Under the pieces are notes generated by a model. That model was not told the origin of the DNA, made no database searches, and saw nothing but the letters and a program-made list of their open reading frames with translations. Positions 28,332-42,649 of a stretch of DNA of 64,000 nucleotides are shown piece by piece. Position 1 is the stretch's first letter; every line of letters starts with the position of its first letter. The translations under genes and the position numbers were made by a program. This stretch comes from Promethearchaeota archaeon (GTDB lineage: Archaea; Asgardarchaeota; Lokiarchaeia; Sigyniarchaeales; SOKP01): assembly GCA_029838195.1 (NCBI GenBank), contig JALGVJ010000002.1:1-64000 (forward strand). The letters run 5' to 3'.

Positions 28332-28856
28332 TCAAGTTCTTGAATCTATTATTCTCCTCGTTAGCTCTGTAAACGCCTCATCCACATTTACGCCGGTTTT
28401 AGCCGAAGTTTCTATATAAATCGATCCCTCACTCTCCGCAAATTGTCGTGCCTCCTCCCTATCAATTACCTCTCCCACATCCTCCAAAAGATCTGCCTTG
28501 TTCCCGATGAGTACGAATGGAATGTTTTCTCCGGCAAATTGCCTGATTTCTGCTAGCCATTTCCTCGTTTCAGTATAAGTTTGTTCACGAGTCAGATCAA
28601 AAACAAGTAATGCTCCCGCTGCCCCCTTGTAAAAGGTTGACCGAATGAATTCAAAGCGTTGTTGACCACCAATGTCCCATATAGAAAGCGTGGCAATTTC
28701 CCCGGGTTTAAATTCTACATCTTTCGTGAGGATATCTACCCCTACAGTGAGTTTATAATTAGCAGCAAATCTATTTTTGATAAAACGTTGAACTAAACTG
28801 GTTTTTCCGACGGCAGCGGCGCCAGTTAAAAGAACTTTTAGCTTAAAACTTGACAT
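28332..28856 (-). CDS. Rab-like small GTPase
   Basis: GAAAVGKT, TVGVD, WDIGGQ, GNKAD, ETSAK; no C-terminal Cys. Confidence 0.92.
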   Translation of the reverse strand: MSSFKLKVLLTGAAAVGKTSLVQRFIKNRFAANYKLTVGVDILTKDVEFKPGEIATLSIWDIGGQQRFEFIRSTFYKGAAGALLVFDLTREQTYTETRKWLAEIRQFAGENIPFVLIGNKADLLEDVGEVIDREEARQFAESEGSIYIETSAKTGVNVDEAFTELTRRIIDSRT

Positions 28857-31347: not shown

Positions 31348-32853
31348 ATGGAACGATTTGAATTAGCCGAGAAAGCACTTGAATTTCTAAGTTTAGCAGA
31401 ACAATTTGAAAAAGCGGATAATTTTTCTCAAGCAATTGAGAATTACCAGAAAGCTGCTGAATACATGCAAAAAAGTGGATTATTGAAACATCGCATAGAA
31501 GAAATTTATAGAATAATTGAAAATTTAAAGAAAAGTCTTAACATGGATTTGGTCAATCAGCAATTAGAAAGGCAAGATCAAATAGATCAACTTCAACTTC
31601 AAGCATTTCATTCAATAGAAACTGCAAAACGATTAGAATCTAAAAATGAGATTGAAGAAGCCATTCAACATTACACATCTGCTTTAATCTCATTAAAAAA
31701 AGCAGGATGGTCAGAAGAGCAATTAAAAAACTTAGAAATTAAGAGAAATCATTTACTTCAGAGGCCAGAACGTCAACACTTGAAAAACGGCGCAGCTTCT
31801 TTTGAGAAAAAAAAGCCTCCTATCATTACACTATTATATGAACCACGTGTCATTTTTCGTGATGAAGGATTTTTAGGAGAAAAAGCAATTACAAAAAAAG
31901 TAAAATCAGAAAGATTAAAGACTTTTGAAACTAAAAGAAGACGGGAAGAAGAGATTCAGAATCGTGCCTTTTCCCATCTTGATGAAGCAAAAAAGCAAGA
32001 AGCTAATGAAGAGTATTTAAAAGCTCTTCTAAATTATCAAAAAGCTTTAGAATTATTAAATTCCATAGGATGGCATCATCAAACTCGAAATATTAAAGCA
32101 ATAATTATCAATTTGAAAAAGCAAATCCAAGATCAAAAAAAATCTGCCAAATTGGAGCAAGTAGAAGAGAAATCCACGATTGAGGAGCGTGGAGAACCCA
32201 AGATAATACAGCCGGAGCCAATGGAAGAGCTTCGAGAATACAAGGTTCTTGAATTAAAGAAAAAAAGAGAAGAAGTTGAACAGATTCAGAATAAAGCATT
32301 CAAGCTAATTGATAAAGCTAATGAGCTAGAAAAAGCAGAAGAACTTGATGAAGCACTCACAAATCTAAATGAGGCAATAAAATTGTTAAAATCTATTGGT
32401 TGGGACGATTATTTAACCCCAATCATCACAAAAATTAATCAAATCAAAGATAAAAAGTTGACTCAAGAAAGAAAGAGAGAATTAGAACAAAAAATGAAAC
32501 AAGTTGTTGAAAAAGCAGAACTTGAACAAGTCGATTTAAAAGAAGTAGAAATAGCAGAAAATTTAGAAGATGTAGATATTTTGACTAAAAAAATAACTCA
32601 AATGGTAGAAAAAAGTAAAAAGGATATAATGTTAAGGGAAAAGCAAAGACGAGAAAACGTGAAAGCTCAAGCAGCTCAATTTAGCAAATCCATGGGAGAC
32701 TTAATTAAGCTTAAAAGAGAATTTATTGAAGAATTAAAAAAAGCGAAAATGGAGGAGGAAAAAAAACTACAGCAGTTAGAGCAAGAAAAAGAGAGAGAAA
32801 AATTAGATGAGATTGCACGGATGTTAGATGAGCTTAATAGGAAAAAGCAATGA
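31348..32853 (+). CDS. Helical-repeat (MIT/TPR-like) coiled-coil protein
   Basis: Four related units A..A...E......A...Y..A..L....G(W), separated by E/K-rich coiled coils. Confidence 0.6.
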   Translation: MERFELAEKALEFLSLAEQFEKADNFSQAIENYQKAAEYMQKSGLLKHRIEEIYRIIENLKKSLNMDLVNQQLERQDQIDQLQLQAFHSIETAKRLESKNEIEEAIQHYTSALISLKKAGWSEEQLKNLEIKRNHLLQRPERQHLKNGAASFEKKKPPIITLLYEPRVIFRDEGFLGEKAITKKVKSERLKTFETKRRREEEIQNRAFSHLDEAKKQEANEEYLKALLNYQKALELLNSIGWHHQTRNIKAIIINLKKQIQDQKKSAKLEQVEEKSTIEERGEPKIIQPEPMEELREYKVLELKKKREEVEQIQNKAFKLIDKANELEKAEELDEALTNLNEAIKLLKSIGWDDYLTPIITKINQIKDKKLTQERKRELEQKMKQVVEKAELEQVDLKEVEIAENLEDVDILTKKITQMVEKSKKDIMLREKQRRENVKAQAAQFSKSMGDLIKLKREFIEELKKAKMEEEKKLQQLEQEKEREKLDEIARMLDELNRKKQ

Positions 32854-34521: not shown

Positions 34522-36108
34522 ATGTCTCATAGAAAAAAAGAGCATGTCTTCAAATCACGGTTATTTGCAAGGCAACAACTCATAGAAGGCTGGGACCAAG
34601 AAGTGTTAAATCAAAGTTGTATCTTGATAGCGGGAGTTGGGGCATTGGGATGTGAAATTGCAAAAGATTTTACTTTGATGGGTATTAAAAAATTAATCTT
34701 AATTGATTTGGATACTATTGAAACTTCAAATTTATCCCGACAAATGTTATTTCGTCCTGGAGATGAAGGTAGACCAAAAGCAGAGGTAGCTGCAGAAAGA
34801 TTGAAAGAAATGAATCCTTTCATTGAAATTGACTATTATTTTGAAAAACTCCAAAATATTCCGTTGGATGTGTATGAAGAAGCGGATATAATTGTCGCTG
34901 CATTGGATAATTACAATGCTCGCTTGGATTTGAATAAGCTAGCATTACGCTTGAAAAAACCATTTGTAGAAGGGGGTACAGTAGGTTTTGAAGGTCATGT
35001 TCAAATTGTCATTCCAGAAGGAAGTGGCATTTCCTATGGAAATCGAGAACGAGAAATTGAAAGAGTGGTTAATGAAGAATTATGGAATTTAGATGAAACC
35101 CAATATCCCGATTATTTTAAAGCTCTAAAAAAAATAGAAGAATTGGAAGAAGAAATTGAGAGAATAAAGAGAGAAAAAATTGACCCCGTAAGAGAAGAAA
35201 TTAAAAAGCAAGTTGAAAGTCAATTTGACGATAAACATGCTCCTAAATTATTAAATATTACACCTTGTTATAGATGTCTCGTTCCCATACCCCCTCCCGA
35301 TGATAAATTGATCGCAGCTTGTACGTTAAAAGGATTACCACGAAATAGAAATGATTGTGTTATTAAAGCAGAGGTTAATTTTGAGAAAGAATTTAGCCGA
35401 AAACCGGATTTGAGAAATGATGATGACGTTTTAAAATTAAAAGAATTAGCCCAAGAAGAATTAGAAAAATTAAGAGAACGCGTTTTTGAAGAAAATGTCC
35501 CGCCTGAGAAAAAAAATGCATTAACTGAGGAGGAAATTTTAGAATGGAAGGAAAACATTCGGACCACGTTTGGTCCCGATTTTCAATTTCATGAAATGGA
35601 AAATATTTTAGGAAACAAAATTCCGGCTATTCAATCCGTTAGCTCTATAATTGCCAGCATTCAATCGCAAGAAGTATTAAAATTATTATTTAGAACAAAA
35701 GGTAGAAATATTGGCGACCCCATGTATCCTCCCTATATTAATTATAACGGGGTATATGGGCAGTTTGACATGTTAGACATAATAAAAAGAGAAGATTGTT
35801 TAGCTTGTGGTAAAATAGAAGGGGAAGAGACAATTCATTTAGTAGTTCCTTTTAATGCAGATGTAGGTTATATTTTTAAAGCCTTGCAATTAATTGAGAT
35901 AGATCTTAATCCTGAAGAATGGATGATCACGAATTCAATAACTAAGGAAATTGCATGGCATCCTCTAATTCCTCAGTTTAAAGATCCTACAATTAAACTG
36001 AATTCATTAAATATAAAAAATAATGATATTATACATTTGACGCCCCTTGGAAAAGCCCGAGAGCAATTTGAAATAAAAAAATATAATGCTATTATTTCTT
36101 ACATGTAA
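34522..36108 (+). CDS. Ubiquitin-activating enzyme E1 (UBA3/UBA2-like ThiF family)
   Basis: GVGALGCE, D-x-IETSNLSRQMLF, PCYRC, catalytic-Cys segment ACTLKGLPR..DC, second CxxC (CLAC), C-terminal ubiquitin-fold-like domain. Confidence 0.88.
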   Translation: MSHRKKEHVFKSRLFARQQLIEGWDQEVLNQSCILIAGVGALGCEIAKDFTLMGIKKLILIDLDTIETSNLSRQMLFRPGDEGRPKAEVAAERLKEMNPFIEIDYYFEKLQNIPLDVYEEADIIVAALDNYNARLDLNKLALRLKKPFVEGGTVGFEGHVQIVIPEGSGISYGNREREIERVVNEELWNLDETQYPDYFKALKKIEELEEEIERIKREKIDPVREEIKKQVESQFDDKHAPKLLNITPCYRCLVPIPPPDDKLIAACTLKGLPRNRNDCVIKAEVNFEKEFSRKPDLRNDDDVLKLKELAQEELEKLRERVFEENVPPEKKNALTEEEILEWKENIRTTFGPDFQFHEMENILGNKIPAIQSVSSIIASIQSQEVLKLLFRTKGRNIGDPMYPPYINYNGVYGQFDMLDIIKREDCLACGKIEGEETIHLVVPFNADVGYIFKALQLIEIDLNPEEWMITNSITKEIAWHPLIPQFKDPTIKLNSLNIKNNDIIHLTPLGKAREQFEIKKYNAIISYM

Positions 36109-36925: not shown

Positions 36926-37466
36926 TTAATCCATTGCGTATTTAGCAGTCCATTTTTTTGCTTTTTCCATGAATTTCTTCTGAGAGCGAAAATATTGTTC
37001 ACCAGCTTCATGATTTAATGGATCTCCAGGATTGAAAAAAGGGGGTTCCATGTGCATCATGCCTTTTAAGGCTTCAATAATATTCGTCAGAGTTTTACTT
37101 GGTGTCCAGCCAGAAGCTCCTGTAGCTGCATCTACTTTGCCAACCAAATCCGGATTGAGCAGATCCAAGCAGATATTTAATTTCCCCGGCGGAATGGAAG
37201 AGTCTATATTTGGATGCCACATTAAGGTAACAGCATATGCATTTCCCCAAATTAGTCAGAATCGGCTAATTTAATGGAGGTTGGAATGGATAATTTGGCG
37301 GAAATTTAATCTCAAATACAAATCGCCCTTTTGCATATGGAGTTCCTTCTTTTCCAATGATTGTTAGTCTCAAATGGTCAATACTTCTCCCCCATGGCTC
37401 CAGAATCACGTATTCATCATCTTTAAATACTTCCAATGCTTCCGTATAATCCGTTTCTTCTCGCAT
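36926..37466 (-). CDS. Ubiquitin-conjugating enzyme E2, interrupted by a 31-nt putative intron (exon 1 37466-37274, exon 2 37242-36926; spliced product 169 aa)
   Basis: Exon 1: GTPYAKGRF.FEIKFPPNYPFQPP. Exon 2: AYAVTLMWHPNID...NICLDLL...GWTPS..L..I...P..DPLN.EA. Joined they give the canonical PP-x8-(W/Y)HPN spacing. SD AGGAG upstream of ATG 37466. Confidence 0.9.
37243..37273 (-). other. Putative BHB/BHL-type mRNA intron (31 nt) in the E2 gene
   Basis: mRNA ...C CUCC AU^U AAAUUAG ccgauucuga CUAAUUU GGGG AA^A UGC... gives a 4-bp helix CUCC/GGGG, 3-nt bulges AUU and AAA and a 7-bp intron stem. Excision restores the frame (CCA UAU GCA). Confidence 0.75.
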
Positions 37467-41267: not shown

Positions 41268-42649
41268 CTAAAGTTCGACAAGTCCAATTAATTTTTGCTT
41301 TCTCGCCTAAAGGGAGTCTATAGCATGCGGGTCCCCTCCATGGATTAACGTGTATATAACGCGAGCCATCTTGCGCGCCCTACATTCTTCTTTTAATGAA
41401 GTAATCCAGGCGCCAAAGATCTCCTCATAAAATCGATAAAAAACTGCCCGTTTCTTGCCCAACGTGTCCGCATCTGGGTGATGCGGGAATAACAATCCCA
41501 AGCGAGCGGCCCACGTGAGGAGACGGTACACTAAAAATACCAGGGTAATAAAGCAATACTGCCCTTCGATATTTCTTAACATGCACCCCTTCAAGTGCAA
41601 CTCTTGGGACTCGTCCCGATAACTCGTTTCGATGGTTCAGCGCTTCAAATAGGCTTGGATGATGCCCTTGGGACGTTCATTGAGCATGTTGGAAACTAAA
41701 CCGGTCCATCCTTTCTTATATTTCGGGGCAGATTTCCCCGAAGTGTCTCTCATCACCTCTCGCAGGAAGAGGACTCGTTGCACGCCAATTTTAGGAACGA
41801 ATACATCCCGATGAGCCATCAAATAATGGCGCTTTTCCTTGGTCTTGGGATTCGTGACTTCCACGTGCTCAAATTCTGATTCTGCAATATCCTCGTACAA
41901 CTCTTCCACCTTCCAGCGCTTCCGCTGATACGTGACCACCCAATTGCGTTTTATTTTGGACACGTAGAAATAGCCCGGTAAACTCAAGAGCTTCATTTTT
42001 CGGCACGTACCGTTCGGAGTGGTGCCGTTTTTCTAATTCTTGCGGACGTCGATAGAGCAAGCAATCGAGGGGATATTCGAAAGGACCGCCGTAGTAATGC
42101 GTGGTGATCATGGAAAGCCCAAGTATCTCTTTATTGTGGGCCGTGGAGTAAAAATAATCCACGCCTTCGATTTCCTTGCCCGTCTTGGGAATGACATGCT
42201 CGTCAAGCGCAATCACGCCTTTCGGGCGAATGGCAAGAGAAGTAATGGTCTGGAGCGAACGAAGATTATAAAGGAGCATGTCTCTTGCTCTTCTTGCACT
42301 TAGTCGGTGGAGGCTCCGATTCATCTGCCTCTCGCTCTGCCCCCGAACGGTGTTCTCAGCAACATGCTTGACGGAAGCTCCTTCATCCACTAATAAACCA
42401 TGAACAAACGCCTTCACGGCCTTTTCCTCGTTGGGTGGTAAACGCAAGCCATGTTCTTCAAAAAAATTCATGATAAGCGGGTTTTCTTCCACGACTAGCA
42501 TTTTAAGATAAAGGGCTCTTCCTTTCTTATAAAAGCGTACATGATGAGGGTGATATGTCACGCTTTTTCCACGTGAGCCTTTCTCAAGTCATTAGAGAGG
42601 TACAAGGATTTATAAAGCTTCTAAGATACATTAAGTTGTCGAACTTTAG
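41268..42649 (-). mobile_element. IS701-like (DDE) insertion sequence, 1382 bp, defective transposase
   Basis: 14-bp TIRs CTAAAGTTCGACAA (41268-81, 42636-49); 7-bp direct repeat TTAATAA (41261-67, 42650-56); higher GC; transposase in three pieces (IALDEHVIPKTGK; YVSKIKRN; KR*TIETSYRD). Confidence 0.88.

What the first reader, a model, noticed from the sequence alone, without database searches (positions are those of the whole stretch)
36926..37466. Candidate tRNA-type (bulge-helix-bulge/loop) intron in the mRNA of a ubiquitin-conjugating E2 enzyme
Seen in sequence: the E2 appears as two ORFs. Between the codons for FQPP and AYAVTLMWHPN lie 34 nt, where canonical E2 spacing (PP-x8-YHPN) needs one codon, so there are 31 extra nt carrying a stop and a frameshift. 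The mRNA reads CUCC-AUU-AAAUUAG-ccgauucuga-CUAAUUU-GGGG-AAA: a 4-bp central helix (C-G, U-G, C-G, C-G), a 3-nt bulge on each strand and a 7-bp intron stem. The exon-side stem is imperfect (UAUCCA/UGCAUA beyond a 7x3 internal loop), so this is a relaxed bulge-helix-loop. Established: archaeal EndA cuts after the second nt of each bulge and RtcB ligates. Applying that rule removes exactly 37243-37273 and yields CCA-UAU-GCA (FQPPYAYAVTLMWHPNID), a 169-aa E2 with an intact catalytic Cys. Both halves are otherwise free of lesions. The well-documented archaeal mRNA intron is in cbf5 of some TACK archaea; I know of none in a ubiquitin-system gene. Inference: E2 expression depends on tRNA-machinery splicing, since unspliced RNA gives a 66-aa product with no active site. 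This could be a regulatory switch analogous to the tRNA-ligase-dependent XBP1/HAC1 splicing that controls eukaryotic proteostasis.
Basis: partly seen in the sequence, partly recalled or inferred. Interest (0 to 1): 0.95.

Follow-up and report, generated by a model that had tools for sequence, protein, structure and literature searches.

The report
tRNA-type mini-intron splits Asgard E2 gene
The ubiquitin-conjugating enzyme (E2) gene of this Asgard (Loki-type) archaeon is interrupted by a 31-base insert shaped like a tRNA intron, and relatives carry such inserts at seven sites of the same gene, so the mRNA is very probably cut and rejoined by the tRNA-splicing enzymes, which the papers I could search report for only one archaeal coding gene (cbf5).

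Summary
Observation confirmed. The E2 gene (minus strand, 36926-37466) is split by 31 nt (37243-37273). These fold as a 4-bp helix, two 3-nt bulges and a 7-bp intron stem.

Cutting after the second base of each bulge gives a 510-nt, 169-codon frame. Its junction (PP-Y-AYAV) matches about 110 uninterrupted orthologues.

The same-genus genome has a 30-nt insert at the same site. dN/dS between the two is 0.01 with silent sites saturated, so this is not a pseudogene.

Across 154 genomes of the order and 80 metagenome contigs, the orthologue carries 29-39-nt inserts at seven sites. All seven fit the same cutting rule, and every complete copy I spliced gave 510 nt without stops.

Stems covary: 89-91% of cells are paired, against 19-59% in slid controls. 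Two double changes lie in an exon-intron central helix.

The genome encodes two full-length EndA paralogues, a short third one and RtcB.

No RNA data were available, so splicing is inferred (about 0.85).

The XBP1/HAC1-like switch idea has no support. Presence is patchy among close relatives, and other genes of this genome (elp3, dnaG) are split the same way.

This scan noted such introns before, in other genes of this genome and in other Asgard genomes. The searchable literature reports only cbf5.

The parts
37274..37466 (-). E2 exon 1: ATG at 37466-37464, 64 codons plus the first base (U, 37274) of the split Tyr65 codon
   Evidence: (UQ_con profile 22-62)
37243..37273 (-). 31-nt mini-intron carrying an in-frame TAG (37268-37266) and shifting the frame
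   Evidence: The boundaries are fixed by alignment to intact orthologues and by the BHB cutting rule.
36926..37242 (-). E2 exon 2: last two bases of the Tyr65 codon, HPN motif, catalytic Cys89 (37171-37169), stop TAA 36926-36928
   Evidence: (UQ_con profile 68-139)
37276..37279 (-). Central helix H, 5' strand (CUCC, exon sequence within the Pro-Pro codons)
   Evidence: All five complete intron-bearing alleles have exactly this exon context, against 15 of 37 intron-less ones.
37273..37275 (-). Bulge 1 (AUU); predicted 5' cut between 37274 and 37273
37249..37272 (-). Intron hairpin h': 7-bp stem (37272-37266 with 37255-37249) and 10-nt loop (37265-37256)
   Evidence: Covariation across six alleles.
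37245..37248 (-). Central helix H, 3' strand (GGGG, intron sequence)
   Evidence: It reads GGAG in the sister species, turning U-G into U-A.
37242..37244 (-). Bulge 2 (AAA); predicted 3' cut between 37243 and 37242
34522..36108 (+). Context: E1-like ThiF-family protein (528 aa), about 800 nt from the E2 gene
   Evidence: ThiF, E 4.6e-57

Best explanation
The 31 nt at 37243-37273 are an archaeal bulge-helix-bulge (relaxed, HBh'-type) intron inside the coding sequence of a ubiquitin-conjugating E2 gene. In the pre-mRNA, the exon bases CUCC pair with the intron bases GGGG. A 3-nt bulge lies 3' of each strand of this helix, and a 7-bp intron hairpin stacks on it. The splicing endonuclease EndA would cut after the second base of each bulge, and RtcB would join the exons. 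That creates the Tyr65 codon (U+AU) and a 169-aa E2 with its HPN motif and catalytic Cys. Unspliced RNA can only give a 66-aa fragment. The intron is one of a class of about 30-nt mini-introns scattered through protein genes of this Asgard lineage. It is probably a tolerated insertion rather than a dedicated regulator.

Shown: the motif, the exact frame restoration, conservation, covariation, selection on the exons, and the presence of the enzymes. Inferred: cleavage and ligation in the cell.
For: - Junction. Removing exactly 37243-37273 gives 510 nt without stops. The residue pattern PP-Y-AYAVTLMWHPN is the one found in uninterrupted orthologues.
- Sister species. The same-genus genome G001 has a 30-nt insert at the same base. 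The stems are kept, the loop has diverged and carries an indel, and the central helix changes from U-G to U-A.
- One mechanism for both. The 31-nt insert shifts the frame, while the 30-nt insert only adds a stop. Only excision explains both.
- Selection. G000 versus G001 gives dN 0.027 and pS 0.73 (saturated), so dN/dS is about 0.01 in both exons.
- More sites. In 154 genomes of the order and 80 metagenome contigs, the orthologue carries 29-39-nt inserts at codons 56/57, 65, 74, 127, 130, 146 and 161. Each has a 4-bp helix and 3-nt bulges at the alignment-defined boundaries. Every complete copy I spliced gave 510 nt without stops.
- Covariation at codon 130. 89% of cells are paired against 19-49% when the partner is slid. 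8 of 16 pairs show changes on both sides. In the central helix, U-A becomes C-G and G-C becomes A-U.
- Covariation at codon 65. 91% of cells are paired against 36-59% slid, and 5 of 11 pairs show double changes.
- Exon constraint. All five complete intron-bearing alleles at codon 65 share the exon context CTCC-AT. Synonymous positions vary in the intron-less alleles.
- Enzymes. Two full-length EndA paralogues (202 and 199 aa), a 106-aa third one, and RtcB are encoded. ARAGORN reports introns in 23 of 36 tRNA genes.
- Other genes. elp3 and dnaG of this genome are split by strict BHB inserts inside conserved motifs or domains.
Against: - No transcript, circular-intron or peptide data exist.
- The exon-exon outer helix is missing (0 contiguous pairs), so the 3' cut site lies in an open region.
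- The BHB is not the minimum-free-energy fold. A competing pairing of exon bases 37291-37305 with the 3' half of the intron is predicted.
- The local folds are not unusually stable (z -0.55 and -0.68).
- My genome-wide scan for strict BHBs that merge two long ORFs showed no excess over a mirrored decoy (796 versus 759). The class is therefore not shown statistically in this genome by that test.
- The assembly is a metagenome bin with 7.9% estimated contamination.
Confidence: 0.85

Rival explanations
1. Recent pseudogene: a 31-nt insertion killed the E2 gene, and the hairpin is incidental.
For: The gene is interrupted by a stop and a frameshift. A second, distant E2-like paralogue (39% identity) exists on contig C26.
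Against: - The sister species carries the insert at the same base, and dN/dS is 0.01 with silent sites saturated.
- There are no other lesions in any of about 25 intron-bearing copies.
- The stems covary.
- The C26 paralogue is present in nearly all relatives as well, so it is not a replacement.
Confidence: 0.03
2. Recoding at the ribosome: translational bypass (as in phage T4 gene 60), or a frameshift plus readthrough across the insert.
For: A stop codon directly follows the interruption and a hairpin sits there, as in gene 60.
Against: - There is no matching take-off and landing codon pair.
- The conserved Tyr codon exists only as U...AU split by the insert.
- The 31-nt and 30-nt versions would need different recoding events.
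- Inserts at other sites lie in all three codon phases, yet all obey one RNA-cutting rule.
Confidence: 0.03
3. Regulated switch: the intron is spliced only under certain conditions and so gates the ubiquitin system, as in XBP1/HAC1.
For: Unspliced RNA cannot give active E2. A competing exon-intron pairing is predicted. The sequence of the helix strands is conserved between the two species of the genus.
Against: - Only about 16 of 129 genomes with the gene carry any intron in it. The sites differ among them, and the pattern on the gene tree is patchy.
- Unrelated genes of this genome carry the same kind of insert.
- The structure is a BHB, not the twin stem-loops cut by IRE1.
- The alternative fold is not significant.
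Confidence: 0.08
4. Split E2: the two ORFs are translated separately and assemble into an active enzyme.
For: Both ORFs are intact and conserved.
Against: - The first ATG of the second ORF lies after the conserved strand YAYAVTL, so that strand would be lost.
- The Tyr65 codon is split.
- Relatives with three inserts would need four pieces.
- Covariation of the RNA structure would go unexplained.
Confidence: 0.02

Closest known systems
BHB intron of the cbf5 (pseudouridine synthase) pre-mRNA of Crenarchaeota (Desulfurococcales, Sulfolobales; PMC2738675)
   Same: It is a short intron inside an archaeal protein-coding sequence. It has a bulge-helix-bulge motif, often in relaxed form. It is removed by the tRNA splicing endonuclease of hetero-oligomeric type. 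It has been gained and lost among relatives.
   Different: The gene (an E2 of the ubiquitin system) and the phylum (Asgard/Promethearchaeota) differ. There are seven intron positions in a single 510-nt gene across one order, and up to three in one copy. Sizes are uniform, about 29-32 nt. Splicing has not been shown experimentally here.
Archaeal tRNA introns at non-canonical positions, as in Asgard tRNA genes (bioRxiv 10.64898/2026.10.13.758758)
   Same: They share the same motif and cutting rule and, presumably, the same enzymes. [quoted passage not shown] Gains are repeated and presence is patchy.
   Different: The host is an mRNA, so the exon half of the helix is also constrained by codons. 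That preprint does not mention mRNA anywhere in its main text.
XBP1/HAC1 unconventional mRNA splicing (IRE1 plus tRNA ligase)
   Same: It is spliceosome-independent removal of a short intron from an mRNA, with exon joining by a tRNA ligase (RtcB in animals). The reading frame changes on splicing.
   Different: The endonuclease is IRE1, which cuts twin stem-loops, not EndA at a BHB. That system is stress-regulated. Regulation is neither shown nor suggested here.
BHB-dependent processing of an mRNA 5' UTR in Haloferax volcanii (PMC7714728)
   Same: EndA acts on a non-tRNA, non-rRNA transcript.
   Different: That site lies in an untranslated region, by the checked note of an earlier scan finding (e1-938019); I read only the abstract. 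The coding frame there does not depend on splicing.

Membership tests
Archaeal BHB (EndA/RtcB-spliced) intron | 4-bp central helix flanked by two 3-nt bulges, each lying 3' of its helix strand | tested here: met
   CUCC/GGGG with bulges AUU and AAA
Archaeal BHB (EndA/RtcB-spliced) intron | Cutting after the second base of each bulge yields the functional product | tested here: met
   A 510-nt frame results, and the junction codon TAT equals the Tyr of the intact orthologues. A shift of one base gives N or F.
Archaeal BHB (EndA/RtcB-spliced) intron | Flanking helices h (exon-exon) and h' (intron) of the strict hBHBh' form | tested here: not met
   h' has 7 bp, but h has 0 contiguous pairs. This is the relaxed HBh'/BHL form, which the cbf5 literature ties to hetero-oligomeric EndA (PMC2738675).
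Archaeal BHB (EndA/RtcB-spliced) intron | Structure maintained in evolution (covariation) | tested here: met
   89-91% of cells paired; double changes in 8 of 16 and 5 of 11 pairs; slid controls 19-59%
Archaeal BHB (EndA/RtcB-spliced) intron | EndA and RtcB encoded by the genome | tested here: met
   Three PF01974 matches, two of them full-length with the N-terminal domain, and one RtcB match at E 5.9e-166
Archaeal BHB (EndA/RtcB-spliced) intron | EndA of a broad-specificity type ((alpha-beta)2 or epsilon2), able to cut relaxed motifs | tested here: inconclusive
   Two distinct full-length paralogues fit an (alpha-beta)2 enzyme. Subunit roles and the specificity loop were not examined.
Archaeal BHB (EndA/RtcB-spliced) intron | Cleavage and ligation observed in RNA | not testable with these tools
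   No transcript data.
Ubiquitin-conjugating enzyme E2 (Pfam UQ_con) | UBC fold signature with HPN motif and catalytic Cys | tested here: met
   UQ_con in both halves (E 4e-11 and 3.6e-10). HPN at 74-76 and Cys89 in the spliced product.
Pseudogene | Relaxed selection and accumulating lesions | tested here: not met
   dN/dS 0.01 against the sister species, and no further lesions
Translational bypass (T4 gene 60 type) | Matched take-off and landing codons flanking the gap | tested here: not met
   The sequence shows no matching pair, and the junction codon is split U|AU.
XBP1/HAC1-type regulated splicing | Twin stem-loops cut by an IRE1-type sensor nuclease; condition-dependent splicing | tested here: not met
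   The structure is a BHB. Regulation was not testable, and an IRE1 homologue was not searched for.

The most novel reading that the evidence does not exclude
Asgard archaea have an active process that repeatedly inserts about 30-nt endonuclease-spliced mini-introns into protein-coding genes, and this E2 gene is a hotspot. It has seven sites in 510 nt, up to three introns per copy, and a patchy distribution that needs several gains or losses per site. Some such introns may later be kept as coding sequence: one in-frame 30-nt insert at codon 127 has the intron layout but has lost the central helix. If so, interrupted protein genes and an RNA-level repair system for them would predate the spliceosome in the closest archaeal relatives of eukaryotes.
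Probability: 0.45. Interest if true: 0.9.

Novelty: new member of a known kind. Interest (0 to 1): 0.74.

Why it matters
In the papers I could search, splicing of an archaeal coding sequence by the tRNA machinery has been confirmed for one gene only, cbf5 of Crenarchaeota.

Here the same mechanism is strongly indicated in an Asgard archaeon, in a gene of the eukaryote-like ubiquitin system. The indication comes with comparative proof of selection and with multiple intron positions.

Three consequences follow.

- Gene callers and pseudogene counts for Asgard genomes are wrong at such sites.
- These organisms tolerate and maintain interrupted protein genes.
- Intron gain, loss and possible exonisation can be studied in the lineage nearest to eukaryotes.

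The idea is directly testable with RNA from enrichment cultures, or with recombinant EndA and RtcB.

Tried and rejected
- Genome-wide scan. I searched for strict BHBs (4-bp helix, at least 5-bp stem, 16-90 nt) whose removal merges two ORFs of at least 60 codons. It found 796 candidates against 759 for a mirrored decoy, with no excess in any length or stem class. Adjacent genes dominate the background. Two of ten inspected candidates were plainly neighbouring genes. The scan therefore gives no census. It did recover the E2, elp3 and dnaG sites.
- Minimum-free-energy folding. The BHB is not the predicted optimum and the z-scores are insignificant. This is not informative for an enzyme-stabilised motif.
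- Other copies of the intron in the genome. None was found beyond 11-15-nt chance words, so it is not a repeated mobile element.
- Exact spliced junction in metagenome contigs. No hit.
- A same-species intron-less allele or cDNA among 5.8 billion proteins. The best match had 93% identity.
- Two inserts on metagenome contig L031. I first scored both as lacking a BHB. The one at codon 161 does fit once a U-U mismatch in the stem is allowed and the Ser junction is used (reading of the sequence, prompted by contig L142). The one at codon 127 still does not fit.
- A 38-nt insert at codon 162 in L138 and L139 fits no strict BHB.

Full report
**What is in the window.**

On the minus strand, an ORF of 66 codons (37466-37266) ends FQPPLN*. 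A second frame, open from 37255, runs to the stop at 36926-36928. Pfam UQ_con matches profile positions 22-62 in the first piece and 68-139 in the second. Together they form one ubiquitin-conjugating E2 broken in the middle.

An E1-like ThiF protein lies 800 nt away. A Ras-family GTPase and a MIT-domain protein lie nearby. The closest database proteins are labelled Lokiarchaeota or Promethearchaeota. The host is therefore an Asgard archaeon, a 4.5-Mb bin with 33.5% G+C.

**The motif.**

| Element | Sequence | Coordinates |
|---|---|---|
| Central helix, 5' strand | CUCC | 37279-37276 |
| Bulge 1 | AUU | 37275-37273 |
| Intron stem, 5' strand | AAAUUAG | 37272-37266 |
| Loop | 10 nt | 37265-37256 |
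| Intron stem, 3' strand | CUAAUUU | 37255-37249 |
| Central helix, 3' strand | GGGG | 37248-37245 |
| Bulge 2 | AAA | 37244-37242 |

Each bulge lies 3' of its strand of the 4-bp helix. That is the geometry of the archaeal bulge-helix-bulge motif, as established for tRNA introns at position 37/38. Cutting after the second base of each bulge removes 37243-37273. It joins U to AU, giving a 510-nt frame of 169 codons with HPN at 74-76 and Cys89.

There is no adjacent exon-exon helix, so the motif is the relaxed HBh' form. It is not the minimum-free-energy fold, and local stability is unremarkable.

**Comparison with intact genes.**

Uninterrupted orthologues of 169-171 aa read PP-Y-AYAVTLMWHPN. 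A DNA alignment of 31 loci places the insert exactly between T and AT of the Tyr codon. A shift of one base would give Asn or Phe. The boundaries set by homology and those set by the cutting rule therefore coincide.

**The sister species.**

The only other genome of the genus (G001) has a 30-nt insert at the same base. Both stem strands are identical, the loop has diverged and carries an indel, and GGAG replaces GGGG, turning U-G into U-A. One insert shifts the frame and the other only adds a stop. Excision explains both.

Between the two genes dN is 0.027 while 73% of synonymous sites differ. dN/dS is about 0.01 in each exon. A gene dead since before that divergence would not look like this.

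**More sites in the same gene.**

I searched 154 genomes of the order (129 have the gene) and 80 metagenome loci. I found inserts of 29-39 nt at these codons:

- 56/57: G011, G070, G125 and two metagenome contigs
- 65: G000, G001, G141, G129, G156, G125
- 74: G156 and one contig
- 127: G069 and three contigs
- 130: G003, G015, G008, G012, G073, G074, G139, G129, G156 and one contig
- 146: G129
- 161: two contigs

At every one of these, the alignment-defined boundaries coincide with a 4-bp helix (at most one mismatch) and two 3-nt bulges. Every complete copy I spliced by the rule gives 510 nt without stops, including one copy with three introns. About 16 of 129 genomes carry at least one intron in this gene.

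On a gene tree, presence is patchy. The minimum numbers of changes are 4 for codon 65, 2 for codon 56 and 7 for codon 130. The tree is poorly resolved.

**Covariation.**

| Measure | Codon 130 (nine alleles) | Codon 65 (six alleles) |
|---|---|---|
| Cells paired | 89% | 91% |
| Cells paired with partner slid | 19-49% | 36-59% |
| Pairs changed on both sides | 8 of 16 | 5 of 11 |

At codon 130 the central helix, whose 5' strand is coding sequence, switches U-A to C-G and G-C to A-U.

At codon 65, all five complete intron-bearing alleles keep the exon context CTCC-AT. Intron-less alleles vary at these synonymous positions: 15 of 37 have CTCC, and 5 of 37 have the full context. Kin are not independent, so that last count is only suggestive.

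**Machinery.**

The genome encodes two full-length EndA paralogues, a short third one and RtcB. ARAGORN reports introns in 23 of 36 tRNA genes, though some of those calls are doubtful. Two distinct full-length subunits fit the hetero-oligomeric enzyme that the cbf5 literature links to relaxed motifs in non-tRNA contexts (PMC2738675). I did not examine the specificity loop.

**Is this an E2-specific switch?**

Earlier notes of this scan list similar inserts in rpl11, tfe, dnaG, elp3, pyrG and other genes of this genome, and in several other Asgard genomes. I treated these notes as leads.

My own genome-wide scan did not show an excess over a decoy. It did recover strict BHBs inside the conserved motifs of elp3 and dnaG. 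Pfam shows the radical-SAM domain of elp3 starting at profile position 67 in the downstream piece. It also shows a GH32 domain starting at position 52 behind another candidate. Two other candidates were simply neighbouring genes.

Most close relatives have an intron-less E2. Together, this argues for a general, tolerated class of insertions rather than a dedicated regulator. Regulation is not excluded.

**Rivals.**

- Pseudogene: contradicted by selection and covariation.
- Ribosomal bypass or frameshifting: there is no take-off and landing pair, the Tyr codon is split, and the 30-nt and 31-nt versions would need different events.
- A two-piece enzyme: it would lose a conserved strand and would leave the RNA covariation unexplained.
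- Assembly artefact: excluded, because independent assemblies carry such inserts with different sequences.

**Literature.**

Full-text searches found no report of BHB introns in Asgard protein-coding genes. The confirmed case is cbf5 (PMC2738675, which states that no other gene had been confirmed). A 2026 preprint treats Asgard tRNA introns only.

**Verdict.**

The intron reading is supported at about 0.85, and RNA evidence is lacking. It is a new member of the cbf5-type class, in a new phylum and a new gene, with an unusual multiplicity of sites.

Noticed in passing
L031:336-911 (codon 127 of the E2 gene); also L050 and L142: An in-frame 30-nt insert without stops has the layout of a mini-intron (1 nt, 9-10-bp stem, short loop, 4 nt, AA), but its 4-nt block cannot pair with the exon. 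It reads as ten similar residues in all three sources. It may be a former intron now kept as coding sequence.
   Followed up: partly
L050 and L052 (genome G129, contigs C91 and C185): One bin holds two closely related E2 copies with different intron sets: codons 65, 127* and 146 in one, codon 130 in the other. This is either two strains in the bin or a recent duplication.
   Followed up: no
L048:1-330 (genome G069): The E2 match starts only at residue 33. The upstream sequence reads as an unrelated open frame, so the 5' part may hold a larger insertion or a fusion.
   Followed up: no
P0002 (1011 aa) and P0003 (351 aa): Close homologues of this E2 occur as C-terminal domains of longer predicted proteins. 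One has a long coiled, charged N-terminal part. The other has membrane segments and a CxxC...CxxC motif. They could be gene fusions or wrong gene calls.
   Followed up: no
window 37291-37305 with 37241-37254: The minimum-free-energy fold pairs exon-1 bases with the 3' half of the intron, which would compete with the BHB. It is not statistically unusual, and the exon strand is only partly kept in the sister species.
   Followed up: partly
window 41640-42561 (minus strand): Two overlapping ORFs lie here, and the longer one gives a weak DDE_5 transposase match. This is possibly a frameshifted or decayed insertion sequence.
   Followed up: no
window 28335-28856 and 31348-32853: A Ras-family small GTPase and a MIT/TPR-domain protein lie within 9 kb of the E1/E2 pair. 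Both are eukaryote-like signature proteins typical of Asgard genomes.
   Followed up: no
G000 contig C1 192051-193501 (L058) and contig C9 19116-20392 (L057): Strict BHB candidates of 29 and 32 nt sit in front of a GH32 domain that starts at profile position 52, and of a penicillin-amidase domain that starts at position 394. Both are possible further split genes.
   Followed up: partly
L138 and L139 (codon 162 of the E2 gene): A 38-nt insert before the final WTKKYAMD codons fits no strict BHB at the boundaries needed to restore the frame.
   Followed up: partly
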